From the sequence record PZ445515.1: a DNA stretch of 64,000 nucleotides; one strand, written 5' to 3'. The position numbers and the translations under genes are program-made. Below, one piece after another: positions 46,473-63,508 of the stretch. Position 1 is the first letter of the stretch, and the number at the start of each line of letters is the position of its first letter. The stretch is from a phage. Under the pieces are notes generated by a model, which saw nothing but the letters and a program-made list of their open reading frames with translations, made no database searches and was not told the origin of the DNA.

Positions 46473-46670
46473 ATGAAAACATTAGATAACTACCTAAAGG
46501 CTAGATATAGCCCTACGGAAGATCAATCTGCTGTAACCTGTGAAATAAGCAAAAATAAAACAGTACGATTAGCTCAAAAAGGTGGAGGAACATCCCCCAA
46601 TATTATTTGGCTATCCGAAGAACAAGCAAAAGACTTATACTGCAAACTAAATAAGTTATTTAATAAGTAA
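46473..46670 (+). CDS. hypothetical protein
   Basis: 65 aa from ATG 46473. Confidence 0.45.
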   Translation: MKTLDNYLKARYSPTEDQSAVTCEISKNKTVRLAQKGGGTSPNIIWLSEEQAKDLYCKLNKLFNK

Positions 46671-46671
46671 C

Positions 46672-47401: not shown

Positions 47402-47622
47402 CAATTATTTTAGTAGTTATGTTATTCATCGTAGTACTTGTATCTTTTGCTATTATGCGTAGAGCCAGAGAATTAGCAGAAGATGTAGTAAAATTACGTG
47501 GTGAGGTAGCGGGGCTCAAACTACAACGTGAAGCTCTCAAGCTATTCGTAGCTCAAGGTAGTGTAGAGCATACAGCAGAAGACTTCATCGTATATCTTAA
47601 ACGTTACATGGGAATCAAATAA
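47389..47622 (+). CDS. hypothetical membrane protein
   Basis: 77 aa, N-terminal TM. Confidence 0.5.
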   Translation: MEIIAIILVVMLFIVVLVSFAIMRRARELAEDVVKLRGEVAGLKLQREALKLFVAQGSVEHTAEDFIVYLKRYMGIK

Positions 47623-47807
47623 TGGAAACTCTTTTTCTTTTAATGCTCGTAGGTTCTCTGTTACTAATACTAGCACTTCTACTAATCTGCAACATTCTTA
47701 ACAACAAGAATCTAGAGTTAAAGTGTGAGAACCAAATCCTTAACCGTGAACTTAAACAATATAATCTAGCAGCCCATAAACTGTTAGACAAACTGGAGAA
47801 TAAATAA
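47622..47807 (+). CDS. hypothetical membrane protein
   Basis: 61 aa, N-terminal TM. Confidence 0.45.
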   Translation: METLFLLMLVGSLLLILALLLICNILNNKNLELKCENQILNRELKQYNLAAHKLLDKLENK

Positions 47808-48421
47808 TGTTTACACAACAGCCTATTCAAGTAGTACCAGACCATGAACTGAACACATGGGATTACAGCTTTAAAGATTTAACTGCTACTGTACAATTCA
47901 AATCTATGAAGCTAACATTTGCACACACCGACCTTAAAGCCTGTAAAGATCTTGAGAGTAAGCTCGAAGATGCTCGTAAGATTTTTGGCACGGCTCGCAT
48001 CCCGGCTGATAACCTGATTAATGCACTAATAGACGCTGGTTATAAACTCGTGAAGACTGAGGTGAACCGTCCTAGTGCTCCAGTAACTATTCGAGATTCA
48101 TGGCCGTCCGGACCAATCGCAATGCTGAATAACTCCGATAAAAGATTAATGTCGGATATGCACAATATTCCTTGTGGGGGTGTGGTAAGTAGTACGCAGT
48201 CATATAAGTTTGTGGAAGATTACGGCCCATCTGTACAGCTAAAACATACTCAAGAAGCTTTTGAATCTGATATGCGAAGCGTAGCACCTGCGGATGCTGG
48301 AGTTTCTAGGAGTTCTGTTTGTACTATTCATTTTAATAATCCTGGTAAACATGGAAGTTTAGAGGATGCTATTATGGAGGCGTTGGGAGCTGCTATTAAT
48401 GAAGATAAGAGAGGTAGCTAA
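47807..48421 (+). CDS. hypothetical protein
   Basis: 204 aa ORF. Confidence 0.55.
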   Translation: MFTQQPIQVVPDHELNTWDYSFKDLTATVQFKSMKLTFAHTDLKACKDLESKLEDARKIFGTARIPADNLINALIDAGYKLVKTEVNRPSAPVTIRDSWPSGPIAMLNNSDKRLMSDMHNIPCGGVVSSTQSYKFVEDYGPSVQLKHTQEAFESDMRSVAPADAGVSRSSVCTIHFNNPGKHGSLEDAIMEALGAAINEDKRGS

Positions 48422-48498
48422 TCCTCTAATACATGAGCCTCTACGGAGGCTCTAAAATAAAAAGAAGGTCATCCAGACCTTAAAAATGGGAGATAATA

Positions 48499-49383
48499 AT
48501 GTATAACTTTAAAGATAAACTAAGACAAAACGCTGGTAAAACAAAACCTAAGGAAAATAATAGTGTTCCTGATGCTAAAGTACTTCCATTTCCTGAACTA
48601 ACCCAGGAAGAAAAAGATAAACTAGCATTTATGTTCGATGCACTTATAGGATTAAGTGGACGACTGTACTCCACCCTTAGTATTAATGAGAAACGTCTAG
48701 TAGAGATGTTTTGTAAACGTTACCAAGTTACTTCAAAAGGCAACGCCCATAAAGAAGGTGAAAAAGCATTCACAGTCTTAAAAATCAGTGCATATGCACA
48801 TCGTTTCTTAGTTTATGGGTTACAGATGGAATACTTCACCATTCCACCATTTAAGTCATTTCACATCTTTGAAGATGAACGAATGAATATTGATGATCTC
48901 TATGGAGATACATACAAGTACTCAGGAAGTCCATTCCATGATGCATTAAGAAGCTATCCTACTAGTTATTTACCAGTTAGGGCATCACAGGGTAAAGCTA
49001 GCATCTTTGCGGTATACTCAGGATCTAAAGCATCGGATCTAGAAACTTATATATTTAAAGAGCGTAAATCTGTGCTTCCAGATGAAGCATTATATAATAA
49101 TCCATTGCTTCCAGAAAAAGAACCCGAGAAAATTGATGTAACCCCACCAACCCCATCTGATTCTCAATATTTAATCTACGAAAAACAAGTTAAGCTATCT
49201 CTAGAGATTGGTTTAGTCACACCGCTTGCTGCAGCATTCATCAATAGATACCTAGAAATTCCTAACGAGTTCCACACACGTTATAATACGAACATTCAGA
49301 TAACAGATGAACTAATTGCACTAGCAAAAGATACACCTACTGACACTGAGGCGTACCAAAAAGCATACCAAGAGTTACTGTAA
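48499..49383 (+). CDS. hypothetical protein
   Basis: 294 aa ORF; last early-region gene before repeat block. Confidence 0.6.
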   Translation: MYNFKDKLRQNAGKTKPKENNSVPDAKVLPFPELTQEEKDKLAFMFDALIGLSGRLYSTLSINEKRLVEMFCKRYQVTSKGNAHKEGEKAFTVLKISAYAHRFLVYGLQMEYFTIPPFKSFHIFEDERMNIDDLYGDTYKYSGSPFHDALRSYPTSYLPVRASQGKASIFAVYSGSKASDLETYIFKERKSVLPDEALYNNPLLPEKEPEKIDVTPPTPSDSQYLIYEKQVKLSLEIGLVTPLAAAFINRYLEIPNEFHTRYNTNIQITDELIALAKDTPTDTEAYQKAYQELL

Positions 49384-49919
49384 GATCCTGCATGTCTCGG
49401 TGCACAATACCTGTACCGAGACTCAAATACAAACTCTCGTTGACAGATAGCTAAATGTATGTTATCATAACTCTATGAGTTAATAGAATTAACCATTTAG
49501 AGTTGCCACACAGAAGGTGTGGTGGTTCAGTAATTTAAAATTACTAACTTGTAGCGGAGGATACGGAGCGACAGGACAAGTTAATAAGTAATTTAATATA
49601 AATTGCTAGAAACATCACGAGACCTTCTGGCGGGGGCAAAGCTCTATATGAGAACCCTGGGGGATCTTATATTTAAAATAAAAGTAAAACTTTTGACCAC
49701 ATAATTTACATTCAAGATGATACACCTGTTGCCGCTCATCTGCTAGGATGGCACAACACTTTCCTAGAAACTCCAGAGTTCTCACGAAATACTCACTCTT
49801 TCTAGGGCGGTTCTCCTAAGTTTCTAGGAACATATACTAGGCGGTTTAATACAGGGCGGTTATGGGGAGGGCGGTTATTTCTAGGAGACATTTTTTGAAA
49901 ACACATTTCCAGAAATTAC

Positions 49920-50520
49920 TGTCGGATTTGCACATTGTGTTTCTAGAAATTTATGGTCGGATTTGCACAATTGCCTAAGTTTTTAGGAACATATAATCTC
50001 TTGAAAATGGCAGCATTATTTCGGGCCGAAGGCCCATGATTGCCTGAGTTTTTAGAGCCACAGAAACTTTCACTTGTCAAGCTATTTTGCCCCATTTAGC
50101 TAATAAGATTTTACTTTATCTGCACTAATCTCAAATTAACCCAAATCTTCTCAACTCTTCCCCAAAATCCCCGCAAATCAGGTGCTACGCACCAAACATG
50201 CGCCCCTCTCGCAGTTCCCTCAAATTTTTCTCGATCTCTCAACTTCTCCCCAAACTCTTACAATCACACACTCTCCAATCGAAGTCACAAAAATCTTGTC
50301 GGATTCGCACAAATAAACCCATGTCGGATTTGCATATATTCTAGTTAATTCCACAGGATTGATGCGCAGCATCGGATTGCTGGAGTTTTTAGGAAAATTC
50401 ATTGTCGGATCCGCACATTATAAAAATTTTTCGGGTCGGATTTGCACACTACCAAAAATTGTCGGATTCGCACATACACGCCCACGCGTAATCCATGGGG
50501 GCAAATGTCGGATTTGCACA
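49920..50520. repeat. array of 8 direct copies of 15-bp motif TGTCGGATTTGCACA (injection-stop-signal-like repeats)
   Basis: Copies at 49920, 49955, 50297, 50322, 50403, 50434, 50460, 50506 with 1-2 substitutions; no ORF. Confidence 0.8.
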
Positions 50521-50559
50521 AAAGCGCAGGGCAATTGCCCTGCTTGCCTGAATACGAAT

Positions 50560-50750
50560 GATAATGAGAATCATTCTCATTTAAAAAGCGGAATGTGAAT
50601 GATAATAATTCGCATTTAAGAATGGAAGTGAGAATTATTCAGGAAGTGAAACGATTCTCATTTAAAAAGTGGAATGATTATTAGTTAGATAGTGAAATGC
50701 GAATGATACTGATTCGTATTTAAGAATGGAAGTGAGAAACACTATTATTT
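50560..50750. repeat. tandem approx. 90-bp repeat pair with palindromic cores
   Basis: Units alternate gagaatcattctcatttaaaaagYggaatg and gaatgata...ttcgYatttaagaatggaagtgagaa; extra copy near 51059. Confidence 0.7.
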
Positions 50751-50753
50751 AAG

Positions 50754-50846
50754 TTATCCACAGACTTATCAACAGCACGATTTGACTTGACAAAATCCTA
50801 GCCATTTTGAGGCGTTATCAACAGACTTATCAACAGCTTATCCTAC
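50754..50846. promoter_or_regulatory. DnaA-box cluster I
   Basis: Perfect TTATCCACA at 50754 plus TTATCAACA x3 and TTATCCTAC within 90 bp. Confidence 0.6.
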
Positions 50847-51414
50847 TGTATAAATATACAGTATTCCTATGCAGTGAATAATTCTAATATACAGCTAAAA
50901 CGCTCTCAAACGCATTCTAACGCGTTTAATTTTGTTGGGGATACTAAAACACGGGTAAAATTGGAGGAGGCTTAGAAATTAGTTAGCGAGCTAACGATCA
51001 CACAAGGCGACACGTAACACCCTAATCATTAGCAGGCTAACCATCGCGGGCGCGGTTAAATGAGAATCATTCTCATTTGAAAATTGGGGGCACTCCCTGA
51101 TAGTTGCGCCCCGTGATTATTAGTCTGGTAGTCGATGCGTGATTTTTTCCTCCTCCCCGTAGGAATCCACCAAATACTGATAATAACCATCGTGATCATA
51201 AATCACTTTATCATATTCGCCACGCTCGACCGCTTGCCGATTCTCCGGCGTATCTGGCACGTAAAAACATCAACCATTGTACTGATCTTGGTTACAACTA
51301 TTTTATTACTCATAATAACTCCCTAGTAAATATATTTTTGCCAATAGTGGCGAATGTTATCGCCACCAGCGGAATCATTAGCGGCCTTACTATTACCAAC
51401 GAAAATATATAATC

Positions 51415-51774
51415 TCATTGCGCCACCTTTCGAAACGCTGTTTCAATACTATCCGCAGTGGATTGAATATATGCGCCTTTCATTATCAGGCGCTCGGTAC
51501 ATACCTTGCGGAAAATATTAATAAAATCATCTTCATTTTCTGCAATTAATGCTTCACCCATAACCTGAACGTCACAAGATGCAAAGGTCAAAAATTGAAA
51601 CGCTAGTTCACGGGCAACGACCGCATTAATTTTATAATGTGCCTTGCCCTCATAAATATTAATAACGCCCTTATAAGCTGGGGAAAGCTGATTTAAATAG
51701 TTTGCTAATAATGCTGGGCGGCAATTAGCAACAAAACGATTGCCTTCATAAATTATCATTTGCATAGCTCCCAA
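51415..51774 (-). CDS. hypothetical pre-early-region protein
   Basis: 119 aa ORF, last gene of leftward operon. Confidence 0.55.
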   Translation of the reverse strand: MGAMQMIIYEGNRFVANCRPALLANYLNQLSPAYKGVINIYEGKAHYKINAVVARELAFQFLTFASCDVQVMGEALIAENEDDFINIFRKVCTERLIMKGAYIQSTADSIETAFRKVAQ

Positions 51775-51878
51775 ATAGTTCCGCCGATGATCATTAGCTG
51801 ACTAATAATTATCAGAATAAAACCAATTGAAGGCAGGACGCCCCAAAAACGAAAAGCCGTTTTAATTTGCTGAATCAT
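51759..51878 (-). CDS. hypothetical small membrane peptide
   Basis: 39 aa hydrophobic ORF overlapping neighbours. Confidence 0.3.
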
Positions 51879-52005
51879 TTGTTAGCCTCCCGATTAGATA
51901 GCCAGATAAAAGCATAAAGATCCCCAATGAAATGGGGTCATTTTTAAATAAGGTGGCGATAAAACCGCCAGCCATTGCAAGGATAATAACAATAACGCTT
52001 TTCAT
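51862..52005 (-). CDS. hypothetical small membrane peptide
   Basis: 47 aa hydrophobic ORF. Confidence 0.3.
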   Translation of the reverse strand: MKSVIVIILAMAGGFIATLFKNDPISLGIFMLLSGYLIGRLTNDSAN

Positions 52006-52214
52006 AGTACCCCACGAAACGCAGCGTAAAAGGTGGCAAAGTGTTTAACTGTTTCAGCTATCACGTTGCCGCGCTTATCAAATTTTTTCTCGGTAACACG
52101 AAAGGCATTTTTGTTACGTGCTACATATTCGATTTTACAATCTTCCCGCTCGAACGTGTTAACATCCACCAGCTTAAAGCCTTTCGAACGTGCAAGGGAA
52201 ACGTTGCGGATCAT
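52002..52214 (-). CDS. hypothetical protein
   Basis: 70 aa ORF with AGGAGA RBS. Confidence 0.5.
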   Translation of the reverse strand: MIRNVSLARSKGFKLVDVNTFEREDCKIEYVARNKNAFRVTEKKFDKRGNVIAETVKHFATFYAAFRGVL

Positions 52215-52216
52215 TT

Positions 52217-52366
52217 TTATTCTCCTTTACTAGTCATGCAGCCCAGCAGATAAGAAAACGCAGCAATGCCAGCGCCAATAATAACGGCGTGAACGCCAAA
52301 AGCTATTGCAAACAACGATAAAATAGCGCCCAAGATACCCGCCAGAATAGCTCGAAAAATAACCAT
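52217..52366 (-). CDS. hypothetical small membrane peptide
   Basis: 49 aa hydrophobic ORF with AGGAGA RBS. Confidence 0.35.
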   Translation of the reverse strand: MVIFRAILAGILGAILSLFAIAFGVHAVIIGAGIAAFSYLLGCMTSKGE

Positions 52367-52413
52367 TTTTTATTCTCCTAGTCAGTGGGGGATATAATAT
52401 CCCCCGTTACTAA

Positions 52414-52644
52414 TTACATTAAAACAATTTTTGCAGCTTGTTTTTTAGTACAGTGTTCCGCTTTCAGCGTGTCCAGCAAAAAGCCCGCCGTTTGCTGATC
52501 GATTTTATCGGCGTTGTATAGTTCTTGGATGGTGTTATAAGTTTTAGCAATGCCGAACTCCTGCACCATTTCATGAATAATGGCGCGGTTAGATACCCAG
52601 CCTTGAGCGGTGAACAGATGAGTAGCAGAAGAGTAAGCAACCAT
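52414..52644 (-). CDS. hypothetical protein
   Basis: 76 aa ORF. Confidence 0.5.
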   Translation of the reverse strand: MVAYSSATHLFTAQGWVSNRAIIHEMVQEFGIAKTYNTIQELYNADKIDQQTAGFLLDTLKAEHCTKKQAAKIVLM

Positions 52645-52747
52645 TTTAAGCCTCCAAATTTTTGGGAAATTTTTAATCCACCGTTTTGGTGTAAAGGCAT
52701 TATAACAAAAAAGCCACCATAAAAGGCGACCTTTACAAAACTTTACA

Positions 52748-53242
52748 TTAAACTACTTGTAAGGACTCAACATTGAAACATCGTTTCAATTCGTCATGCA
52801 AAACAGCGTATTCCTCCCATCGGGTATTATCAGGAATATAAACAAGCTGTTTTAATCGATTTGCGTATATTACCGCTTTGTTACCAACTATCTCGACGCC
52901 GCCATATTTAATAATTAATTTCATGACGGAATTAATAGGATCGCCGCCGTTTACATATGTGCCGGATTTACTTAGCTGATAATGATAAAGGCTTGCGTAT
53001 ACGTTTTCATTTTCATACCATTCGCCAGTATCCTCGTCTTCATAGCCATCGCTACCAAAACGAGAAGCATTATCAATAGCCATTTCATGAGCGAAAGCGT
53101 CCAGATCCGTACCAGCAGGAACAAAATATTCCTCGGTGTTCCCTTCCCCGCAATAGCCAGTATGGCAATCGACTAAAATGATCATATCGTGTTTAGCCGT
53201 GCTTACTTCCCCTAGCGAGAAGCCGTATTTTTCATCAGCCAT
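52748..53242 (-). CDS. hypothetical protein
   Basis: 164 aa ORF with RBS. Confidence 0.55.
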   Translation of the reverse strand: MADEKYGFSLGEVSTAKHDMIILVDCHTGYCGEGNTEEYFVPAGTDLDAFAHEMAIDNASRFGSDGYEDEDTGEWYENENVYASLYHYQLSKSGTYVNGGDPINSVMKLIIKYGGVEIVGNKAVIYANRLKQLVYIPDNTRWEEYAVLHDELKRCFNVESLQVV

Positions 53243-53307
53243 TAGTTAGCCTCCTATTAATTAACAAGGGAATAGTAAAGCGGGGTAACAATCCCCGCTA
53301 AATATTA

Positions 53308-54318
53308 TTACTCGCTTTCGGTGTTAGTGGTAAAAGTAGAAATATCGATACCTTTTACCATTTCATCAATCATTTCAGCGATGTTAAAACTTTGCACCAT
53401 TTCTAACATTGCCGCTTCCATAGCCGCCCCTGCTACCGCTTTCGCTTTCTGGTTAGTCGGTGCGTACTGGTCAACCGCTACACTCAGCAGGTTAGCAATC
53501 ACTACTCGACCAATAGGCGTATCGATATAACCTTTGATCATGAACGGTGCTTTTTTAGCCGCTACTTTCGTGATTTGAGTTAATGCAATCTTACCCGCTT
53601 CCAGTTTTGCAGCGTTTACAGCAGCGGATTTATTAGCGGCAACGATGTTAGCAATCTTGGTCATGGTATTTTTTCCTTTGTTTTCAGTAGTTTGAGTATT
53701 AACGTTTTGAGTGTTAGAATTTACAGCATGGTTTTCTACGCTGTCAATAATCTGATCTTCATCTTTCCAGAAAGAAAAACCAGCGCTTTCTATATCCCCA
53801 TCATAAATATATGGGTATAGCTCCCGTGGTAACAAAAAATTACCATCGCCATCAAAAGCCATTATAGCGGTATATTGAGATCCGTCGTTATCCGGCTTAT
53901 GCCATCCAGCAGGTAAATACTTCCAGATAACATCTAAAAATCCCTCAATGCTAGAAAGTCCATTTATCAGATCAAGCCCAATAAGCTCGAAACCATTTAT
54001 ATTAAATGATTGACGGCCTGAATTGCTATGATACGCAACAATATTATTGCCCTGCGCAATAATAAAATCGGCATCCGGCCCCGCTCCCCTGCCTGTAAAG
54101 ATATGGCAATCCCGATTATATAAAACAAGCGTTGCCCCTTGTTTATATAACGGCAAAAAACCATCCATATCATAAGCGTCATAATCATCAAAAAAGTTTT
54201 GATGAATAGTTTCAGCCTTGTTAATAAAATGTTTAATGCTGGTTGACTTGCTACCATCCAGCAGGTTGCGCAATGCACCTTTTAAAACGGTGGCATTATC
54301 AGGTTTATACAGCCTCAT
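53308..54318 (-). CDS. hypothetical protein
   Basis: 336 aa from ATG 54318 preceded by GAGGGAGG; first gene of leftward operon. Confidence 0.55.
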   Translation of the reverse strand: MRLYKPDNATVLKGALRNLLDGSKSTSIKHFINKAETIHQNFFDDYDAYDMDGFLPLYKQGATLVLYNRDCHIFTGRGAGPDADFIIAQGNNIVAYHSNSGRQSFNINGFELIGLDLINGLSSIEGFLDVIWKYLPAGWHKPDNDGSQYTAIMAFDGDGNFLLPRELYPYIYDGDIESAGFSFWKDEDQIIDSVENHAVNSNTQNVNTQTTENKGKNTMTKIANIVAANKSAAVNAAKLEAGKIALTQITKVAAKKAPFMIKGYIDTPIGRVVIANLLSVAVDQYAPTNQKAKAVAGAAMEAAMLEMVQSFNIAEMIDEMVKGIDISTFTTNTESE

Positions 54319-54600
54319 TTGTTCGGCCTCCCTCGTTAATCGGTGAGTGAATGATATAGATATTTGTTCACTAGGGGCAAGAAAAAAGAAAATGTTTTTT
54401 ATTCCTTGCCTAGCGCCTAGTTTTATGCTAACCGCGCAGCGGTGCAATAAAGAGCAAAACACGGCGAAGCCACCAGGGCGACGGGTGAAGGCTTTACTTT
54501 AATATTACCCCACCGCATTTAGTTCGTTAGAAAGCGTTTTAGGCCGCTTGAAATTGATTGCAGTTGTTAACACTACCTTTTTACCCTGTATATTTATACA

Positions 54601-55020
54601 GTAGGATAACCTGTGGATAAGTCTGTGTAAAAGTCCTTATATCGCCGCCTATCGTGTCAAATTATTTTGTGCTGTGGAAAACATTGTGGATAACTTAAAT
54701 GATAGTGGTTCTCACTTAGACCGATGATTTCTTATAGTTATTATTTCTCATTAATTTATATGTATATTATATATCATGAAATAGTTAGTTAGCTAATGAG
54801 ATTTTCCGTGATTAATAGTCTGCTAATAATTTAAGCCGTTACAATCCACCAGCATGATTATCATCCTAGCAATTATTAGCCTGCTATCTTTCTGATGCAT
54901 ACTAACAAATAAAAGTCAATTAATTTATTTTATAAAATAAGTAGTTATCCACTGGAAAATAAAAGTCAAGTGGATAACTAGGAAAATTTCATTTTTGCTT
55001 TTGGGGATAAGTTATCAACA
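54601..55020. promoter_or_regulatory. DnaA-box cluster II in divergent intergenic region
   Basis: TGTGGATAA at 54612 and 54685, TTATCCAC 54945, GTGGATAAC 54970, TTATCAACA 55012; very AT-rich. Confidence 0.55.
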
Positions 55021-55423
55021 AGGCTAGAATGCGTCTAAAACGCCCTAGAACGCGATGAAGTTTTTAGCCATCCCATCATAAGGGGGCACGCCGTTTATCG
55101 CTGCCACGAGCTTTTTAGATTTTGTCAAGTAGGGCAAAGCAAATATAAATGAAAAAATTACTTGCCTATTTGCTTTATTTTGTGGTATTCGCGCGCCCGT
55201 TTCTTTTAATTTTAGGCCGTCGCCGCACGCCATTCGGTGGATCATGTCTTTACGTTTCTTTACAAAAATAAGGTTGCGCCATTTTTGGTATTTGCTATTA
55301 TTTATCTCGTAGGGCGGCAATGACGAACTACACGGCGGGAAGTTTACCGCCACGCTCTTTAAAAATTGGGTATATCTTAAAGCCTATCGGCGGTAAACTT
55401 ATCTATTATAAGGAATCGACGAT

Positions 55424-55627
55424 ATGAAACAAACTTTATTGATCACTGGTAAACCTAGCAAGGCACTGGATAGCGAAACTAAAAAATTGTTGACAGTAGC
55501 GCAAAGATCGGTAAAATACCGATTCACGCAGTACAAGAAAGGCCGCCAGCAAGGTTTAGAAATGATCTGGCGAAACATTATGATTGACTTGAAAGAAAAT
55601 CATAAAAAACTGCAAAAAATTGTTTGA
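55424..55627 (+). CDS. hypothetical protein
   Basis: 67 aa ORF. Confidence 0.45.
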   Translation: MKQTLLITGKPSKALDSETKKLLTVAQRSVKYRFTQYKKGRQQGLEMIWRNIMIDLKENHKKLQKIV

Positions 55628-55853
55628 CAACCTAGCCGATAGGTTTTAAGATGTACCCAGTTCGATAAGAGCGATAACTTGATAAAATTTGACGGTCGGT
55701 GCTTACCATAATGCGCCCCGCCCCCTAACGGGATATAGCGGCCTACATGGAGTTCTTTAAATTGATTAAACTGGCGAGCGGATTGTTACTTATTACCTGC
55801 TACCTTCTAGCAGGTAATGCGGAACAATCCCCTAAATAACTGGAGTTTATATT

Positions 55854-56105
55854 ATGCAAAACGTTATTACCGCGCCTAAAATTGGTCAATCCGTCTTTAT
55901 TCCTTTCGTTACTAAAACGGATGAATTAACCGGAAAAGCCGAACGTATTAAAGGTGCGGCGCTTATGCCGTTCGATACAATCGACGCGGTATATGCTGAA
56001 AATGAACGCAGTAACAACGGCAAGCCGATTTATAACGTTCGCGTTAAATCCGGCGACGCTGTAAAAGTTATCCAGCGTAACGAAAAATGGGAAGCGGTGG
56101 CATAA
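55854..56105 (+). CDS. hypothetical protein
   Basis: 83 aa ORF with RBS. Confidence 0.5.
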   Translation: MQNVITAPKIGQSVFIPFVTKTDELTGKAERIKGAALMPFDTIDAVYAENERSNNGKPIYNVRVKSGDAVKVIQRNEKWEAVA

Positions 56106-56377
56106 AAATAACCTTCTTTAACTGGTATAAGCACCGCCACAGGTGAACATATCAAGCTACCGTGGCAATTGTGAGCGGCAAATAAAGCGGCTTAAATAGC
56201 GGCTAATATATTCTAAATAGAATAGCTTTAAAGTGTTAACCGAATATACTTGAACTTGCGCGGCGGGTAGTTATTTCTAGAATAACTGAACTCAAGACAA
56301 TATTAGTTGAAAGTATATTCTGATTAACATTTAGTTAATCATTAAATCCCTTAAATTAAACAAATAGGAGTTACATC

Positions 56378-56785
56378 ATGACTAACGCAAAAACCGCAAA
56401 ATTCGCATGGAATGAAGAAAACACTCAGAAAGCTGTTACCATGTACCAGCAGTTAATCAACGAAAACGGTTTAGATTTTGCAAATAGCGACGGCCTGAAA
56501 GAGATTGCAAAAGCAGTAGGCGCGGCCTCCCCCGTATCCGTTCGGTCAAAATTGACCAGTGCAAAAGCCTATCAAAAAAGCGATAAGCCGCGTAAAGTTG
56601 GCGGCGGTAGCTCTGTGCGTAAAGCTCACTATGTGCGAGTAATTGCAAAACACGCTATCGATTCCGGTATTATCAAAGACGCCGATGATCTGGCAAGCCT
56701 TGAAAGTGCTAAACTGGAAACGCTGGACGCGGTGGCGCAACTGTTAGGCGTTGCCGATGAAGTAAAACAAGCCGCAGGCGAATAA
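56378..56785 (+). CDS. hypothetical protein
   Basis: 135 aa ORF with RBS AGGAG. Confidence 0.55.
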   Translation: MTNAKTAKFAWNEENTQKAVTMYQQLINENGLDFANSDGLKEIAKAVGAASPVSVRSKLTSAKAYQKSDKPRKVGGGSSVRKAHYVRVIAKHAIDSGIIKDADDLASLESAKLETLDAVAQLLGVADEVKQAAGE

Positions 56786-56875
56786 TAGTTATACCTTGCC
56801 CCCTCACTAGAAGGGGGCAATAATATAACTGTTTAGCGATAGTTATTTTCTTCCCTTAAATCAGGAGTTTTAAAA

Positions 56876-57073
56876 ATGGTTTTCTTTCCTACTGAATCTT
56901 TAATTCTAGGCTTATTTATTATGGCGGCCTCGTTATTGTTCGCTTATTTTCAAAATGATTTAGATTCGTATTATTTTAAACGTAAATCTAAATTAGCAAA
57001 GCGTTTAGGTCTGATTTGTTTTATTGCCGCCGTTGCTTGTGGTGTTAGTTCTAGCCTAGTGCCTTTAAATTAA
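56876..57073 (+). CDS. hypothetical small membrane protein
   Basis: 65 aa, two TM segments. Confidence 0.45.
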   Translation: MVFFPTESLILGLFIMAASLLFAYFQNDLDSYYFKRKSKLAKRLGLICFIAAVACGVSSSLVPLN

Positions 57074-57163
57074 TGTTGCAAATTATAACGCCTATTATTC
57101 AAGGCGTTATATTTGGCAATATTGCCATTATTAATCTAATCCCTTTAATGGAGTTTTATTACT

Positions 57164-58834
57164 ATGATTATTTCCGCAGAAAAACAAACCGTTATCCTGA
57201 AAATGGCCGCTGACTTTAATTTCTATGGTAAACGTCTGCGCGCTACTAAACTGGAAGTCTGCGACGATATATCAAAAGCGGTCTACGATACAACGAAACA
57301 TTCAACCGCTATCTGCGACTGGCTGGAAGCAAATAAACCAGTTAAACCAAAAGCGGCAAAAGTAGCAAAAGCCATTAAAAACGATGAGCGCCCCGAAGCG
57401 GCGGGGATTGTTTCTAGTACCGTGGAACAGTGGGAAGTAAAACAAGGTAAACGCTTTATTATTACGTCGATTCAGAATAATACTTTCCCGCATAAAAACT
57501 TTTTAGCATCACTGGAGCAATTTGCTAAATATATCGGTGCTGATTTGCTTGTTTCTAAGTATATTTATAATAAAAACGGATTCCAAAATGGAGAAGGTGC
57601 GGATGGAATCAAATATGATTCCGCTTTTGATAAATATATTTGCAGCAAAAACGTGTTTTTAAATAACCGCCGTTTTGCTTTCATGGCTGAAATTAATGTT
57701 TTGCCAACCGCAGATTATCCGCTTTCAGGATTCGCAGAAACTGCAACCGCGCTCAATATTGAGGGGCTTGCGATTGGTCACGCTAAAATTACCGCTGAAA
57801 GTGTGCCAGCTTTAAAAGGTGAAGTAGTGCGCCGCATGTATTCAACCGGAACGGCAACCCTCAAAAACTACATTCAGCAGAAAGCAGGACAAAAAGCGGA
57901 AGCACTGCATAACTTCGGCGCGCTGATTGTTGAGTTCGACGAGGACGGGGAATTTTTTGTACGCCAGCTTGAAACAATGGACGAAAGCGGGGTGTTTTAT
58001 GATCTGAACGTTTGCGCTACTCCTGCCGGATGCTATGAAACATCGGGGCATGTTTTAGGCTTGCAATATGGCGATATTCATGCGGAAAAATTAGATGAGG
58101 AGTGCGCCGCCGCATCTTGGGGGCATGGCGATACTTATGGGCTTGTGGATATTCTTAAACCAAAATATCAGTTTGTACATGACGTGCATGATTTTACATC
58201 CCGCAACCATCATAACCGCGCATCCGGTGTATTCCTAGCAAAACAGTACGCCGCAGGACGTGATAAAGTTCTGGATGATCTTATCGACACGGGGCGCGTG
58301 CTGGAATCAATGGAACGCGATTTTAGTCAAACGATTATCGTAGAATCTAACCATGATCTAGCGTTATCCCGTTGGCTTGATGATCGTAATGCTAACATCA
58401 AGGACGATCCCGCGAACGCGGAACTATATCACCGCCTGAATGCTGCAATTTACGCGGCAATCGGTGAACACGACGAAACGTTCAACGTGCTAGATTATGC
58501 CTTGCGTAACGTCGCAGGTTGCGAGTTTAACGCCATTTTCCTGACCACTGACCAATCTTTCAAGATTGCAGGCATTGAATGCGGCGTACACGGTCACAAC
58601 GGCATTAACGGGAGCCGTGGCAATCCTAAACAATTTAAGAAATTGGGCAAGTTAAACACGGGGCATACGCATACCGCCAGTATTTACGGCGGCGTATACA
58701 CCGCTGGCGTAGCGGGTAGTCTGGATATGGGTTACAACGTTGGCGCGTCAAGCTGGACGCAAACGCATTTAATTACCTATGCAAACGGCCAGCGCACTTT
58801 GATTGACTTTAAGAATGGTAAATTCTTTGCGTAA
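57164..58834 (+). CDS. A1: pre-early protein A1-like (metallophosphatase-fold, host takeover)
   Basis: 556 aa, same length as T5 A1; GDIH, GHGD, SNHD, GHTH metallophosphatase-like motifs; followed by A2- and dmp-like genes. Confidence 0.7.
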   Translation: MIISAEKQTVILKMAADFNFYGKRLRATKLEVCDDISKAVYDTTKHSTAICDWLEANKPVKPKAAKVAKAIKNDERPEAAGIVSSTVEQWEVKQGKRFIITSIQNNTFPHKNFLASLEQFAKYIGADLLVSKYIYNKNGFQNGEGADGIKYDSAFDKYICSKNVFLNNRRFAFMAEINVLPTADYPLSGFAETATALNIEGLAIGHAKITAESVPALKGEVVRRMYSTGTATLKNYIQQKAGQKAEALHNFGALIVEFDEDGEFFVRQLETMDESGVFYDLNVCATPAGCYETSGHVLGLQYGDIHAEKLDEECAAASWGHGDTYGLVDILKPKYQFVHDVHDFTSRNHHNRASGVFLAKQYAAGRDKVLDDLIDTGRVLESMERDFSQTIIVESNHDLALSRWLDDRNANIKDDPANAELYHRLNAAIYAAIGEHDETFNVLDYALRNVAGCEFNAIFLTTDQSFKIAGIECGVHGHNGINGSRGNPKQFKKLGKLNTGHTHTASIYGGVYTAGVAGSLDMGYNVGASSWTQTHLITYANGQRTLIDFKNGKFFA

Positions 58835-58888
58835 TTAAATTATTCCCCTAGCGGCTTGAAATATAGCCGCCATTACAGGAGTCAAAAA

Positions 58889-59146
58889 ATGAAAGTTACA
58901 TTACCCAAAACATTGGACGAAAAAGCATTCATTTCACCGGATGAAATGGAATCCGATAAAGTTTACAGCTTCGGGCCTATCCTAGCCGCCAAAACTAATA
59001 CGGATGGCATTATTTCCATCGATTATCGTGATAATGATGTTGTTCCTTTTGATGACGATGGCGCTTTTTATGAGTGGCTAAGCGATAATAATTTACCCGT
59101 AAACGGTGAATTAACGCCGTACCAGATGCAAATTATTATCAAATAA
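58889..59146 (+). CDS. hypothetical protein
   Basis: 85 aa from ATG 58889 after ACAGGAG. Confidence 0.5.
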   Translation: MKVTLPKTLDEKAFISPDEMESDKVYSFGPILAAKTNTDGIISIDYRDNDVVPFDDDGAFYEWLSDNNLPVNGELTPYQMQIIIK

Positions 59147-59185
59147 ATTAAACCCCCTTATTAAACTAATTGGAGTTTTATAAAT

Positions 59186-59578
59186 ATGAAAAAGCAAAAT
59201 ATTCCATTCGATCGCGCTCAATCCTCAATTGTTCTGGTTTATTCTAATGGCGAACGTTACCACGTCGAGGCGGGGCACGTTATTGATGAATTGTTAGATT
59301 TCAATGACGCCTTGCAGGTTACAACATTTGCATATATGCAGGGCAAACTAACCAGCCATATTAAAGCAAAAGGCGTTTATGTTGACACGATGAAACAAGA
59401 AACAATCATTATTGACGCGGTAAAATCTGGTCTAGCCTTTGCAGTTGTCGCGCCTTGCCCCGCTTGCCTTGATGATCAATTGATCAGTGCAAAAGTATAT
59501 ACTTGTGCGGGGATTCGTTCCAGCGTATCAGGTGAAGATGTTAGTTTTATCGCTGATGCGTTGGCTTATGGTCTTTAA
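59186..59578 (+). CDS. A2: pre-early protein A2-like
   Basis: 130 aa ORF immediately downstream of A1-like gene, as in T5. Confidence 0.5.
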   Translation: MKKQNIPFDRAQSSIVLVYSNGERYHVEAGHVIDELLDFNDALQVTTFAYMQGKLTSHIKAKGVYVDTMKQETIIIDAVKSGLAFAVVAPCPACLDDQLISAKVYTCAGIRSSVSGEDVSFIADALAYGL

Positions 59579-59657
59579 TAGTTGATTTATTATTACCCGC
59601 TTATAAATAGCGGGTAATGCTGAATTAATCTAATCCCTTAAATGGAGAACGTAACAA

Positions 59658-60392
59658 ATGAATAAAGCTATTATGAATATTTCCCGCAGCTTCCCGCATA
59701 TTTCCCGCGTCATGATTTGGGATTTAGACGGCACTATCGTTAATTCTTTCCATCGTGTAGCGCCTTGCTTTGATAATGAGGGCAATTTAGATTTAAATAA
59801 GTATAAGAATGAAGCGTGTAAACATCATTTAATAATGCAGGATACTTTATTACCATTGGTTGAATACATGCGCCAGTGCATGAATGACGCAAATACTTTA
59901 AACATTATTTGCACCGCTCGACTAATGAGCAAGTCGGACTATTATTATTTGCGCAAACAAGGCTTGCGCGGTCGTGGTAATAGTAATATCCGCGTGTTTT
60001 CCCGTGATACACTGCATAAATATTTTGAGGCTGATAAAGTTAGCGAAATATACCACAGCAAGGACGCAGTATATAAATCTTATTATTTTGAATTATTTAA
60101 ACAACTATATCCGAACGCTGATTTTACAATGATTGATGATCATAAAGGCGTGCTATCGGCGGCGGCATCATACGGATTTAAAACGCTGGACGCGCAAGCC
60201 GTTAACGATATTCTATCAATCGGCGTGGCATTAATAGGTGAAACCTTTATTGATGAATCCCTCGATGATGATAATGATTATCAATTCCTAGCTGACCGTT
60301 TGAAATTATGTTGGGAAGGTATGACCGAGGAAGAACGCGCAGAATATAGTTGCAGCCCGCAACAATATATTGAGAAATTAAAAGTTGCGTAA
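59658..60392 (+). CDS. dmp: 5'-deoxyribonucleotidase (HAD family)
   Basis: 244 aa; HAD motif I IWDLDGT and later DD motif; position next to A1/A2. Confidence 0.65.
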   Translation: MNKAIMNISRSFPHISRVMIWDLDGTIVNSFHRVAPCFDNEGNLDLNKYKNEACKHHLIMQDTLLPLVEYMRQCMNDANTLNIICTARLMSKSDYYYLRKQGLRGRGNSNIRVFSRDTLHKYFEADKVSEIYHSKDAVYKSYYFELFKQLYPNADFTMIDDHKGVLSAAASYGFKTLDAQAVNDILSIGVALIGETFIDESLDDDNDYQFLADRLKLCWEGMTEEERAEYSCSPQQYIEKLKVA

Positions 60393-60409
60393 TAATTAAA
60401 GTTAAAATA

Positions 60410-60446
60410 GTTTCATCCTGCAATTAAAATGGTTGCAGGATGAAAC
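60410..60446. terminator. bidirectional hairpin terminator
   Basis: 14-bp stem gtttcatcctgcaa/ttgcaggatgaaac between convergent dmp and minus-strand operon; T-run on minus side. Confidence 0.6.
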
Positions 60447-60556
60447 AGTTACCCTGCTAATAGTAACGGGGGTGGCGGTTAGCAGACTAAGTATTCTCCC
60501 CCAACCCACTGGACACACCTCCATGTGTAATCTTATGAAATTTGGCAAAAGTCAAA

Positions 60557-60802
60557 TTAGCGCATAGAATGGTCATCAAACCTGTGTTCTGGTCTGAACT
60601 CACGGAATCTCTTCCGCGACGCCCGAGATCCGTCCGACCACTCCCGCTCAAACTCCGCACGTTTCTCGTCAAACTTCCGCTCCCTTTCCGCAATCTCCCG
60701 CGATACTTCCGCAATATATTTACGATGCTTGTTGATTGCCGCAGTTGTCCCGAAAACTCCCGCAAGTATCCCGATAATAAAAGCAATTACAATACTAAAC
60801 AT
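60557..60802 (-). CDS. hypothetical membrane-anchored protein
   Basis: 81 aa, N-terminal TM then charged tail. Confidence 0.5.
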   Translation of the reverse strand: MFSIVIAFIIGILAGVFGTTAAINKHRKYIAEVSREIAERERKFDEKRAEFEREWSDGSRASRKRFREFRPEHRFDDHSMR

Positions 60803-60989
60803 CTAATTCCCTCTCAATTTGCAGAATACGGGTGCTATCACAACGTTGCAGTAGTACTAACTTTTCTAGAATAACTTGTTGTTGTTTCACCTGAGCTTCT
60901 AGAGTTTTTAGGCGGAGATACACGATACGAGAGACAATGAGGATTACCCAGACTAATATTACTATTAGTGTAATTCCCACTTCCATCAT
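60795..60989 (-). CDS. hypothetical membrane protein
   Basis: 64 aa, N-terminal TM. Confidence 0.45.
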   Translation of the reverse strand: MMEVGITLIVILVWVILIVSRIVYLRLKTLEAQVKQQQVILEKLVLLQRCDSTRILQIERELDV

Positions 60990-61093
60990 TTACGTTTCTC
61001 CGATAGTAAGGTTTCGATTCTAGCTAAGTGATTATCTAAAATACATTGTCCAATAATCACAATCCCCAGTAATGCAATAATTACCCATTCCAT
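60986..61093 (-). CDS. hypothetical small membrane peptide
   Basis: 35 aa hydrophobic ORF, ATGA-type overlaps both sides. Confidence 0.3.
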   Translation of the reverse strand: MEWVIIALLGIVIIGQCILDNHLARIETLLSEKRK

Positions 61094-61221
61094 TAAATCC
61101 ACCCCGCCATAGCTGCTAACCAAAAACCTACGAAAATAAAGAATAAGATAGTTCCGAATCCAAAACTATTTATCCAGCTATCATATACCTCTCCACGTCT
61201 GGTCTTTCTTTTATTTGACAT
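61093..61221 (-). CDS. hypothetical small membrane peptide
   Basis: 42 aa ORF, basic N-terminus then TM. Confidence 0.3.
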   Translation of the reverse strand: MSNKRKTRRGEVYDSWINSFGFGTILFFIFVGFWLAAMAGWI

Positions 61222-61398
61222 ATCTTTCTTGCTCCAATAAATATGATATTTTAAATTATTTTATAATTTGTGCATAACCAACCATGCTTGTGACTTCCTA
61301 GAAGGACTTCTACTTTTCTTACATAGTGGTTTCTGCCAATATACCATCCAAAAAATAAAAAATTTAGTTTACTTGGATGTCTTTTTGCTTTATACTAA

Positions 61399-61665
61399 TT
61401 ACAGGTAGTTAGATTGCTCTAGTTTAAATTTACAATCACCATATTTAAGGTCAAACTGACTGAGATCCCACCATCCAAACTTAGTACGGAGCTGTACTAC
61501 TGGGAAGCGATCTCCCTTAATACGAACTTTTTGAACCTTGAGGCCGTAATGTTCTTCTCCCGCACCACCAAAAGATTTTACAAATCCAGTACAAAATGGT
61601 TTGGGAGCAGGTGCACAACCAGATAACATAACTGCGGCAACTAGTGCAATCACAAACTTTTTCAT
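61399..61665 (-). CDS. llp: Llp-like lipoprotein (receptor-blocking superinfection-exclusion candidate)
   Basis: 88 aa; signal peptide with lipobox LSGC; divergently adjacent to pb5-like gene as in T5 llp/oad. Confidence 0.6.
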   Translation of the reverse strand: MKKFVIALVAAVMLSGCAPAPKPFCTGFVKSFGGAGEEHYGLKVQKVRIKGDRFPVVQLRTKFGWWDLSQFDLKYGDCKFKLEQSNYL

Positions 61666-61750
61666 ATTTATCTCTCCATTTCTAATTTATGAGTATATTA
61701 TAGCAAAATAGAGAGATGAAAGCAAATACATTTTTATAATAGGAGATTAT

Positions 61751-63508
61751 ATGGGTTTTTTCGCTGGAAAATATAGCGATGGTAAGACCGTACTATCTTT
61801 AAATACTGAATCTGGTGGTGACATTAACCGTCACTATAGTCCAAATAATAATAGTATTTTTCATAGTGATATGCCATTTGTCCTAGTTGATGGTACCTAT
61901 GAGGCGGGACTAGGTAATGCTGGCAACGGCTTTTTTGTATGTCAAATGCCCGCTGACATAATAAATATTAAATCTAATGATCCTGGTAGAGTTATACTAA
62001 CTGCTATTGAGATAAATGGTACTCACAGAGCTTTTCTTAATGGTACTCAGAGTAAGGTAGGTCAAACTATAGTTGCTACTCAGGCAGATCCTTTTAGATC
62101 TTTTGCTAGCGTTTCCCAGACTAGTGGATTTGCATTTGGTAATAGCCTGGCATCCGGGACTTATAATTATAACCCATCTATAGGACATGAAGAATCTATC
62201 TCTAGAAATGGTACTGGTGGAACTACCCTACATAGTACTTATCATGGTATAGTTAGGCCAGGTGCAGGAGCTCCAGTAGGTATTACTGTTGCAGAGGCCT
62301 TTGCACAGTTAGGATTCCCTACTAATAGTAGTACAGTACCTATAGATGGTAATAACCAATATTACTGGGACCCGGGATGGATGTCTCCTTTAGGGTCAGC
62401 ACACAGAGGGCACGATTGGTTTTATGTTTGTAACTCTAACATACGTGGGTATGGTGGGGTAAGACAAGGTCTTCCTGGTAGTGTAAATACTATGTACCAC
62501 GATGGGGGTAACAGATTTGTTTGCAGGGGTTCTACAACTAATTTAGCTAACCAATCTGGTAACGCTACAATATTACAGGATTGGTATAACATAACTCCTA
62601 CTAAAGTTATTTGGTACGTTTTGAATTTAAGATACTCAAATGGTGGTATGAGTATCTCTGGTAATCCTTTTACGGGTTCAGATATTCTTATATCTCCTTC
62701 TAATTTCATAATTAAAGGGGTTAGTCTTCCCAATACGGGTTATAAGTTTATTAATCAGAACGCTTTCGGTAACTTAGGTTATAGACCAGATATGGAATAC
62801 ATTGGAAATAACGCAGCATACACTGGGGCCTTTGGGGATACCACTGCAAGATGTGAACTTGTAGGTTCTAGTAATGGGAGTTTATGGTCTCCTGTGGACT
62901 ACGGAGGGGCTAAGTCTCAAATTAGTATTTACAAATTCGGAGCTGGTAAGCAATGGTACGTAAACTCTAATGATAATACTATCGGTAATGAACACGGGGT
63001 TGTTTGGGGGCCTTCAGCAGTTCCACTACGACTTTTTAGCGGAAATGTTGGTAGTTCTTACATGGGGGATGATATTACTCCCAGCTATCCAGGAACTGGA
63101 GATAGATACGTTGGTTTATCAACTATTGGGCTAGGTATACCGAGTGGCAATGCTACAGTAATTCTTACCACTGAAGTTATATCAGGTAACCTTAACTGTG
63201 CAGGTGTTCCTGCTAATACATGGAATAACGGTGTGTTTCAAGTGCAAGGAAGAAGAGCATATAGTTATAGTAATGGAGACGCGATATTCCACCAGATTTT
63301 AACATTACCAGTAGGGTATTTAGTACCTTTTCATACTACATCTGCTTTTAGATACACACCTAACAATGCCCTAAGTAGAAATAGTTTTATATATACTGCT
63401 AAAAATCTAGGAAATGGAAATGTAGAGTTAGGGGTAGTTATGCACGTAAGTTTAGGTAGCGCAGTTTTCCTACCTAGACTAAGAGTAACAGTTCAACGCC
63501 TTACCTAA
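61751..63508 (+). CDS. oad: receptor-binding tail protein pb5-like
   Basis: 585 aa, G/N/S/T-rich; AGGAG RBS; paired with llp-like lipoprotein gene. Confidence 0.55.

What the first reader, a model, noticed from the sequence alone, without database searches (positions are those of the whole stretch)
49384..60450. GC-richer 11 kb block consistent with a collapsed terminal repeat carrying the pre-early genes
Early genes stop at 49383. A repeat-dense non-coding region follows, then a leftward 8-gene operon, a DnaA-box-rich divergent region, and rightward genes including a 556-aa A1-like, an A2-sized and a dmp-like gene; a strong bidirectional hairpin at 60410-60446 precedes the llp/pb5 late module. 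In T5 these pre-early genes sit in the roughly 10 kb terminal repeat next to the injection stop signal. The block also looks more GC-rich than the AT-rich early region. The physical genome ends would then lie near 60.4-60.5 kb, with the inner repeat boundary near 49.4-50.6 kb.
Basis: inference. Interest (0 to 1): 0.6.

Follow-up and report, generated by a model that had tools for sequence, protein, structure and literature searches.

The report
Collapsed T5-type terminal repeat, pre-early genes
This block is the single assembled copy of the roughly 10.5 kb terminal repeat of a T5-like coliphage (T5_ev212), carrying the well-known first-injected "pre-early" genes and the injection stop region; it is textbook T5 biology plus a routine short-read assembly collapse, not a new feature.

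Summary
The window is 100% identical to Escherichia phage T5_ev212 (LR597659.1, 108,546 bp, Tequintavirus), read as a circle across the record's artificial origin. The flagged block is the homologue of the T5 long direct terminal repeat, also called the first-step-transfer (FST) region.

- **Content:** dmp, A1 and A2 (94-98% aa identity to T5), the divergent pre-early promoter region, the paired 132-nt inverted repeats with 8 DnaA boxes, the injection-stop repeat region and the 7.9% nick site.
- **Boundaries:** both repeat-boundary sequences of T5, EASG3, MM-1 and BF23 (termini by PhageTerm) are conserved. They place the repeat at window 50055-60515 (10,461 bp), not 49384-60450.
- **Collapse:** the record holds one copy. 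Its authors assembled short reads with SPAdes and trimmed the contig-end repeats, so the collapse comes from the method. The inferred virion genome is about 119.0 kb.
the repeat density, DnaA boxes, hairpin and gene order are real.
- **GC:** the GC difference holds only against the adjacent AT-rich early region (40.2% vs 36.5%). 26% of same-size windows are at least as GC-rich.
- **"A2-sized" gene:** the 130-aa gene after A1 is the T5.002 homologue. A2 lies upstream of A1.
- **Hairpin:** it has a U-tract on one strand only.

Read depth could not be tested. The feature is already known and of low interest.

The parts
48499..49383 (+). Last early gene before the block. It is the T5.018 homologue and lies outside the repeat.
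   Evidence: 294 aa, 93.9% identical to T5.018; phrog_8583.
49384..50054 (.). Unique non-coding spacer. It is the part of T5 'Repeat Region 3' that runs beyond the terminal repeat, and it holds copies of the DRD-type and DRA-type repeats.
   Evidence: No CDS in the record. D1 copies at 49913 and 49948; D4 copies at 49811 and 49970. It aligns to T5 unique sequence 10220-10935. Davison states that this region overruns the left repeat by 270 bp.
50055..60515 (.). Predicted long direct terminal repeat, 10,461 bp, present once in this assembly. It equals LR597659.1 positions 10637-177.
   Evidence: Boundary sequences are conserved with T5, MM-1, EASG3 and BF23. There is only one copy in the window and in the record.
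50055..51119 (.). Non-coding injection-stop (iss) repeat region inside the repeat.
   Evidence: Homologous to T5 iss 9140-10149. Repeat families D1 (8 copies of 22 nt), D2 (5 copies of 25 nt), D3 (2 copies of 67 nt) and D4. It lies within the most repeat-dense stretch of the window.
50523..50524 (+). Homologue of the T5 major single-strand interruption (the 7.9% nick), next to the palindrome GCAGGGCAATTGCCCTGC at 50526-50543.
   Evidence: T5 nick at 9748/9749. The 100-nt context is 98% identical.
50730..50861 (+). Inverted-repeat arm (IRD'-spacer-IRC') with two pairs of DnaA-type boxes, each pair 3 nt apart.
   Evidence: I1 arm, 132 nt, 77% complementary to 54586-54717. Boxes at 50754, 50766, 50815 and 50827. 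Matches Davison's description.
51120..54318 (-). Leftward pre-early genes: homologues of T5.011, .012, .013, .014, .015 and .017, a 164-aa gene absent from T5, and several very small ORFs.
   Evidence: 10 CDS in the record. Identities to T5 are 67-100%. phrog_4263, phrog_6741 and phrog_4379.
54319..55423 (.). Divergent pre-early control region. It holds the second inverted-repeat arm (54586-54717) with four consensus DnaA boxes, four more DnaA-like boxes at 54945-55020, and T5 'Repeat Region 1'.
   Evidence: The T5 promoter annotations map to this region and its flanks. The RAST CDS at 55045-55320 has no PHROG hit or T5 homologue.
55424..56105 (+). T5.008 and T5.007 homologues, with the P-H22 and P-D/E20 type promoters.
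   Evidence: 89.6% and 89.2% aa identity. Promoter-like sites at 55490-55517 (11/12) and 55624-55652 (10/12). T5 promoter annotations.
56378..56785 (+). A2 DNA-binding protein, required for second-step transfer.
   Evidence: 135 aa, 98.5% identical to T5 A2; phrog_1725.
57164..58834 (+). A1 DNA transfer protein.
   Evidence: 556 aa, 96.2% identical to T5 A1; phrog_1745, E = 1.6e-244.
59186..59578 (+). T5.002 homologue.
   Evidence: 130 aa, 95.3% identical to T5.002; phrog_4576, unknown function.
59658..60392 (+). dmp, deoxynucleoside-5'-monophosphatase.
   Evidence: 244 aa, 93.9% identical to T5 dmp; phrog_415.
60410..60446 (-). Strong hairpin 69-105 nt inside the left end of the repeat. It is the homologue of the T5 terminator annotated at 69-105.
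   Evidence: Folds. AY587007 annotates T5 69-105 as a plus-strand terminator, which is the window minus strand. A hairpin is present in all six genomes compared (window plus five relatives). One change is compensatory relative to T5, and K37 has a different sequence at the same place.
60514..60516 (.). Predicted left physical end of the virion DNA, which is also the junction of the unique region and the right repeat.
   Evidence: T5 and EASG3 start at the base matching 60515; MM-1 and BF23 start at the base matching 60514. The T5 junction of unique region and right repeat aligns continuously across it.
60557..61221 (-). T5.159-162 homologues, small membrane proteins. They form the right end of the unique region and lie outside the repeat. 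The deposited record's origin (60691/60692) cuts the first of them.
   Evidence: Record CDS mapped, where the last CDS is flagged incomplete. Wrap-around verified with 0 mismatches.

Best explanation
**What it is.** Window 50055-60515 is the only assembled copy of the long direct terminal repeat of a T5-like phage (Tequintavirus T5_ev212). In the virion the DNA is inferred to be linear, about 119.0 kb (108,546 + 10,461), with this 10.46 kb segment at both ends.

**How it works (established T5 biology, not tested here).**
- The left copy is the first-step-transfer DNA. It enters the cell first, dmp end leading.
- Entry pauses at the injection stop signal in the repeat-dense non-coding region at about 50.1-51.1 kb.
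- Host RNA polymerase then transcribes the pre-early genes outward from the strong sigma-70 promoters of the divergent region at about 54.3-56.0 kb.
- dmp, A1 and A2 bring about host DNA degradation, host shut-off and A1/A2-dependent entry of the rest of the genome.
- The paired 132-nt inverted repeats with eight DnaA-type boxes flank the leftward genes. They are the conserved elements that Davison proposed as part of the stop signal. That proposal is a hypothesis.
- The hairpin 69-105 nt from the end most likely terminates transcription that reads from the T5.159-162 homologues into the right-hand copy of the repeat.

**Why it appears once.** A short-read assembler merges two identical copies and returns a circular-looking contig. 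In that contig dmp abuts the right end of the unique region, and the injection-stop region abuts the first early gene. That is the layout seen in the window.
For: **Shown here**
- 100% identity to LR597659.1, with one copy in 108,546 bp.
- Synteny and 84-91% nt identity to the T5 repeat wherever the two align. The unaligned stretches are gene-content differences, listed in the full report.
- 14 of the 20 annotated CDS checked have T5 homologues, 13 of them inside the block; A1 96%, A2 98.5%, dmp 94%.
- Both boundary sequences are conserved and map to the same window positions (60514/60515 and 50055) in T5, MM-1, EASG3 and BF23.
- The T5 junction of unique region and right repeat aligns without a break across window 60515.
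- The nick-site context is 98/100 identical.
- The eight DnaA boxes lie in pairs 3 nt apart within a 132-nt inverted repeat.
- The hairpin is conserved in structure across relatives.

**From papers**
- BF23 termini were determined with PhageTerm (PMC10644984).
- T5_ev212 was assembled with SPAdes, contig-end repeats were removed and nt 1 was set by reference (PMC6969025).
- The injection-stop anatomy is described in bioRxiv 10.1101/866236.

**Context**
- About 80 of the 445 records that carry A1 hold two copies. In a 60-record sample the two-copy genomes with an intact A1 match are 116-123 kb and the single-copy genomes are 101-115 kb, apart from one 138 kb record and two fragments.
Against: - Nothing in a single-copy sequence can prove duplication. 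Read depth and read-start data were not available.
- One relative (Kenya-K37) annotates its repeat boundaries 16 nt and 29 nt away from the T5 positions, so the exact ends could be off by tens of bases.
- The roles given to the injection-stop repeats, the DnaA boxes and the hairpin are inferred from T5 literature and from conservation. They are not demonstrated for this phage.
Confidence: 0.93

Rival explanations
1. The phage has terminal repeats, but their limits differ materially from the T5 positions. They might, for example, be the reader's 49384-60450, taking in the whole non-coding region, or a shorter repeat.
For: K37's annotated repeat is offset by 16 and 29 nt from the T5 positions. 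Repeat lengths vary among relatives: 9,743 bp in BF23, 9,846 in K37, 10,219 in T5 and 10,407 in MM-1.
Against: The 60-100 nt around both T5 boundaries are nearly identical in the window. The length differences among relatives come from internal gene content, not from moved boundaries. Window 49384-50054 aligns to T5 unique sequence.
Confidence: 0.06
2. The block is an internal, single-copy region. On this reading T5_ev212 has lost the long terminal repeat, or packages by a permuting headful mechanism.
For: Only that the assembly shows one copy and closes as a circle.
Against: Relatives whose termini were examined or annotated carry the repeat: T5, BF23, MM-1, EASG3 and K37. Two-step injection needs the pre-early genes at the entering end. 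The assembly method collapses such repeats. The boundary sequences are conserved.
Confidence: 0.02
3. The block is a compositionally foreign, horizontally acquired GC-rich island.
For: It is 3.7 percentage points more GC-rich than the adjacent early region.
Against: It is only 0.9 points above the window mean, and 26% of equal-size windows are at least as GC-rich. The block is conserved and syntenic in hundreds of T5-like genomes.
Confidence: 0.01

Closest known systems
[quoted passage not shown]
   Same: - Same gene order: dmp, T5.002, A1, T5.005, A2, T5.007, T5.008, divergent promoters, T5.011-.017, injection-stop region.
- Same boundary sequences, the same nick-site context, and the same inverted repeats with DnaA boxes.
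- Same terminal hairpin, and the same neighbours on both sides.
   Different: - About 84-91% nt identity only.
- No hegG HNH endonuclease, and no T5.003, T5.009 or T5.016.
- An extra 164-aa gene (52748-53242) and a different 85-aa ORF between A1 and T5.002.
- Present once in the assembly rather than twice.
Terminal repeats of BF23 (OR083247), EASG3 (MK373799) and vB_EcoS_MM-1 (PV577657)
   Same: - Identical boundary positions to within 1 nt.
- The 164-aa gene is shared with these phages.
- MM-1 is 93% identical over the block.
   Different: These records were deposited with both copies. The MM-1 hairpin has its loop inverted.
Collapsed direct terminal repeats in short-read phage assemblies (a general artefact that tools such as PhageTerm address)
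   Same: One copy is present, the contig looks circular, and the origin was chosen by convention. About 82% of the deposited genomes that carry this A1 gene hold one copy.
   Different: Nothing specific to this case.

Membership tests
Tequintavirus (T5-type) long direct terminal repeat / FST region | The segment is present as two identical direct copies at the two ends of the linear virion DNA. | not testable with these tools
   Only a single-copy assembly is available. This needs read depth, PhageTerm or long reads.
Tequintavirus (T5-type) long direct terminal repeat / FST region | Homology to the T5 repeat along its length, including both boundary sequences. | tested here: met
   The same boundaries appear in MM-1, EASG3 and BF23.
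Tequintavirus (T5-type) long direct terminal repeat / FST region | Carries the pre-early genes dmp, A1 and A2. | tested here: met
   93.9%, 96.2% and 98.5% aa identity to T5. PHROG hits.
Tequintavirus (T5-type) long direct terminal repeat / FST region | A non-coding injection-stop region at the inner end, with the conserved direct and inverted repeats, the 7.9% nick site and the paired DnaA boxes. | tested here: met
   Compared with the AY587007 annotation and with Davison's description.
Tequintavirus (T5-type) long direct terminal repeat / FST region | Neighbours: the outer end abuts the right end of the unique region (T5.162 homologue, llp, pb5). The inner end abuts the first early gene (T5.018). 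| tested here: met
Tequintavirus (T5-type) long direct terminal repeat / FST region | Two-step DNA injection that pauses at the injection stop signal. | not testable with these tools
   This is an experimental property. It is inferred from homology only.
Bidirectional intrinsic (rho-independent) terminator (hairpin 60410-60446) | A stable G+C-containing stem-loop. | tested here: met
   A stem of 14-17 bp; -24.8 and -21.8 kcal/mol; z = -6.1 and -5.1.
Bidirectional intrinsic (rho-independent) terminator (hairpin 60410-60446) | A U-tract directly after the stem on both transcribed strands. | tested here: not met
   The plus-strand tail is AGUUACCCUG. Only the minus-strand tail, UAUUUUAACUUU, is U-rich. 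The consensus scan did not list the hairpin. T5 annotates one strand only.
DnaA-box cluster (oriC-like array) | Enrichment of TTATCCACA-type boxes in a fixed arrangement. | tested here: met
   38 boxes against 19.6 expected in the window. 5 of the 11 strict-consensus boxes lie in the two 132-nt arms, in pairs 3 nt apart.
DnaA-box cluster (oriC-like array) | DnaA protein binds these boxes and the binding has a functional effect. | not testable with these tools
   The literature treats this as a hypothesis only.

The most novel reading that the evidence does not exclude
The evidence leaves little room for anything new. The most novel reading not excluded concerns the conserved sequences at the two repeat boundaries ('GGAGGTG|TGTCCA' and 'TGTGGCTC|TAAAAACTCAGG', the latter inside a copy of the DRA-type repeat) together with the structurally conserved hairpin about 70 nt inside the left end. 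They could be the still undefined cis signals that the T5 terminase uses to cut and duplicate the repeat. That would make terminus generation in T5-like phages testable by mutating these sites. It is an inference from conservation in six genomes only.
Probability: 0.15. Interest if true: 0.4.

Novelty: already known. Interest (0 to 1): 0.08.

Why it matters
- **Annotation hygiene.** The deposited T5_ev212 genome, like about four fifths of deposited T5-like genomes, lacks its second repeat copy.
- **Misplaced origin.** The record's origin lies 176 nt from the likely physical end and splits a gene.
- **True size.** The true genome is about 119 kb.
- **Practical use.** Anyone who uses this record for engineering, restriction-site counts or studies of injection and anti-defence should treat record positions 177-10637 as duplicated and as the first DNA to enter the cell.
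- **Biology.** It adds nothing new to T5 biology.

Tried and rejected
- **GC content as a marker of the repeat: rejected.** The block is not an outlier in the window.
- **Foreign-island reading: rejected.** The block is conserved across several hundred records.
- **Rfam search of 48500-61800 at E <= 0.1:** no RNA family matched, so no known structured RNA explains the repeats or the hairpin.
- **Consensus terminator scan:** it did not pick up the 60410-60446 hairpin, because the plus strand has no T-run and the loop and stem fall outside its rules. Folding was needed to confirm the hairpin.
it is the T5.002 homologue.
- **The 80-bp difference in repeat length between the two T5 records (10,139 vs 10,219):** checked, and attributed to an internal length difference rather than different ends. 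Downstream features, such as the nick site, shift by about 80 nt.
- **The annotated 91-aa CDS at 55045-55320:** it has no family hit and lies in T5's untranslated Repeat Region 1, so it is probably not a gene.
- **A shared motif at the two boundaries:** none was obvious by eye, and no formal motif search was run.


Full report
**Identity of the window.** Window 49384-60450 is 100% identical to Escherichia phage T5_ev212 (LR597659.1, 108,546 bp, Tequintavirus), positions 11308-242 on the minus strand. Window 46384-60691 equals the reverse complement of record 1-14308 with 0 mismatches. Window 60692-64000 equals the reverse complement of the record's last 3,309 bases with 0 mismatches. The window was therefore read from the record treated as a circle, and it crosses the record's artificial origin at 60691/60692. 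That origin cuts an ORF (60557-60802, minus strand, the T5.162 homologue), which the record annotates as incomplete.

**Check of the observation.**
- The last early gene (48499-49383) is the T5.018 homologue, 93.9% aa identity.
- 49384-51119 has no annotated gene. It is the most repeat-dense part of the window: 172 repeated 10-mer positions, against a median of 24 and a maximum of 62 anywhere else.
- Its repeat families are 8 copies of a 22-nt unit, 5 copies of a 25-nt palindromic unit, 2 copies of 67 nt, and 4 copies of a 23-nt unit.
- Leftward genes occupy 51120-54318.
- DnaA-type boxes with at most 1 mismatch number 38 in the window against 19.6 expected, and 0 of 100 shuffles reach that. 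They cluster at 50754-50835, 54612-54693 and 54945-55020.
- A1 (57164-58834), A2 (56378-56785) and dmp (59658-60392) are 96.2%, 98.5% and 93.9% identical to the T5 proteins (PHROG hits).
- The hairpin at 60410-60446 is real and strong: -24.8 and -21.8 kcal/mol, z = -6.1 and -5.1.

**Corrections to the observation.**
- The 130-aa gene after A1 is the T5.002 homologue, not A2.
- The hairpin has a U-rich tail only on the minus strand.
- Four small genes lie between the hairpin and llp.
- The GC claim is only local. The block is 40.2% GC, the preceding 11 kb is 36.5%, and the whole window is 39.3%. 26% of equal-size windows are at least as GC-rich.

**What it is.** The block aligns to the T5 terminal repeat (NC_005859 1-10219 and 111532-121750) over most of its length, at 84-91% nt identity in the aligned pieces. 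The alignment to the right end of T5 runs without a break from inside the repeat, across the junction of unique region and right repeat, into the T5.159-162 homologues (window 59140-61256).

*Boundary sequences.*
- T5 begins 'TGTCCACTGCC...', preceded at the right-repeat junction by '...CACATGAAGGTG'.
- The window, read as its reverse complement, has '...CACATGGAGGTG|TGTCCAGTGGG...' with the bar after base 60516, so the repeat starts at 60515.
- T5 ends '...TTTCTGTGGCTC', followed in the left copy by 'TAAAAACTCAGGCAATC'.
- The window has '...GTTTCTGTGGCTC|TAAAAACTCAGGCAATC' with the repeat ending at 50055.
- EASG3 (both copies deposited) and MM-1 (left repeat annotated) give the same positions to within 1 nt.
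- BF23, whose termini were determined with PhageTerm (PMC10644984), gives the same positions.
- Kenya-K37's annotated repeat is offset by 16 and 29 nt.
- The two T5 records give repeat lengths of 10,139 and 10,219 bp. The difference looks internal, because downstream features such as the nick site shift by about 80 nt.

The predicted repeat is therefore window 50055-60515, 10,461 bp, which is record 10637-177. Davison notes that 'Repeat Region 3' overruns the left repeat by 270 bp.

**Why there is one copy.** The window and the record hold a single copy. The source paper states that genomes were assembled with SPAdes from paired short reads. [quoted passage not shown] Collapse is thus expected from the method.

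It is also the norm among deposited genomes. The A1 gene finds 445 records but only 525 places, so about 80 records carry two copies. In a 60-record sample the two-copy genomes with an intact A1 match are 116-123 kb, and the single-copy genomes are 101-115 kb, apart from one 138 kb record and two fragments. The inferred virion genome is 108,546 + 10,461 = 119,007 bp, close to K37 (119,011 bp) and MM-1 (118,039 bp).

**Internal anatomy.** Every element maps onto annotated T5 features.
- The 132-nt inverted repeat (50730-50861 and 54586-54717, 77% complementary) corresponds to IRD'-spacer-IRC' and IRC-spacer-IRD of T5.
- Each arm carries two pairs of DnaA-type boxes 3 nt apart. All four boxes in the 54.6 kb arm match the consensus. 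The 50.8 kb arm has one consensus box and three of the TTATCAACA type.
- This is the eight-box arrangement Davison described for 25 T5-like phages. He proposed, without experimental test, that it is part of the injection stop signal. The BF23 paper notes that functional studies are lacking.
- The T5 major nick (9748/9749) maps to window 50523/50524 in a context that is 98/100 identical.
- Promoter-like sites at 55490-55517 and 55624-55652 fall in and near the areas homologous to T5 promoters P-H22 and P-D/E20.
- Differences from T5: no hegG, T5.003, T5.009 or T5.016; an extra 164-aa gene (52748-53242), shared with MM-1, K37, EASG3 and BF23; and a different 85-aa ORF at 58889-59146.

**The hairpin.**
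- It lies inside the repeat, 69-105 nt from the predicted end and 18 nt after the dmp stop codon.
- AY587007 annotates the T5 homologue (69-105) as a plus-strand terminator. That is the window minus strand, the strand with the U-rich tail.
- The hairpin is kept in T5, BF23, EASG3, MM-1 and K37.
- Relative to T5 the window shows one compensatory C:G to T:A change. MM-1 has the loop inverted. K37 has an unrelated hairpin sequence at the same spot.
- The most likely role is to stop transcription that runs from the T5.159-162 homologues into the right-hand repeat copy. A role for dmp transcripts is possible but is not supported by a U-tract.

**Mechanism.**
- *Shown here:* homology, gene content, boundary conservation, the single copy, and the repeat and box arrangement.
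- *From the T5 literature:* the left copy enters first, entry pauses at the injection stop signal, the pre-early genes are expressed, and A1 and A2 then allow the rest of the DNA to enter.
- *Inferred:* this phage does the same, and its ends lie at 60515 and 50055.
- *Not testable here:* read depth and terminus mapping.

**Other checks.** Rfam found no known RNA family in 48500-61800. The CDS annotated at 55045-55320 has no family hit or T5 homologue and lies in T5's untranslated Repeat Region 1, so it is probably spurious.

**Verdict.** The feature is textbook T5 biology combined with a routine assembly collapse. It is already known and of low interest.

Noticed in passing
window 60691/60692; ORF 60557-60802 (-): The deposited record's nt 1 lies 176 nt from the predicted physical end. 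It splits the T5.162-homologue gene, which the record therefore annotates as a partial CDS. The window reads across this artificial origin.
   Followed up: yes
window 61751-63508 (+) and 61399-61665 (-): The receptor-binding protein pb5 is 585 aa (T5 oad spans 1,923 nt, about 640 aa). It does not align to T5 at the DNA level (gap at 61256-63492). The source paper says it is closest to DT57C, which binds BtuB. The paired llp gene is 88 aa.
   Followed up: partly
window 60410-60446; L002 (MM-1) record 69-105; L006 (K37) record ~45-80: The terminal hairpin shows a compensatory C:G to T:A change relative to T5. MM-1 has the loop sequence inverted, as expected from a palindrome-mediated flip. K37 has an unrelated hairpin sequence at the same position.
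   Followed up: partly
window 49440-49468 (+): A near-consensus sigma-70 promoter-like site (TTGACA, 17 nt, TATCAT, with an upstream TG; 11/12). It lies just after the stop of the T5.018 homologue and points into the non-coding injection-stop region. T5 has no annotated counterpart.
   Followed up: no
window 55045-55320 (-): The record's 91-aa 'hypothetical protein' has no PHROG hit and no T5 homologue. It lies in what T5 workers treat as untranslated Repeat Region 1, so it is probably an over-call.
   Followed up: partly
window 50039-50061: The predicted right physical end (50055) falls inside one copy of a four-copy 23-nt repeat family (ATTGCCTAAGTTTTTAGGAACAT type; the other copies are at 49811, 49970 and 50376). 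Whether this matters for terminus cutting is unknown.
   Followed up: no
window 20279-31629 (+): A block of 21 tRNA genes, as expected for a T5-like phage. It coincides in part with GC-richer 1-kb bins at 28-30 kb.
   Followed up: no
window 52748-53242 (-): A 164-aa pre-early gene (phrog_6741, unknown function) that is absent from T5 but present in MM-1, K37, EASG3 and BF23. Terminator-like hairpins flank it at 53279-53299 and 52709-52734.
   Followed up: no
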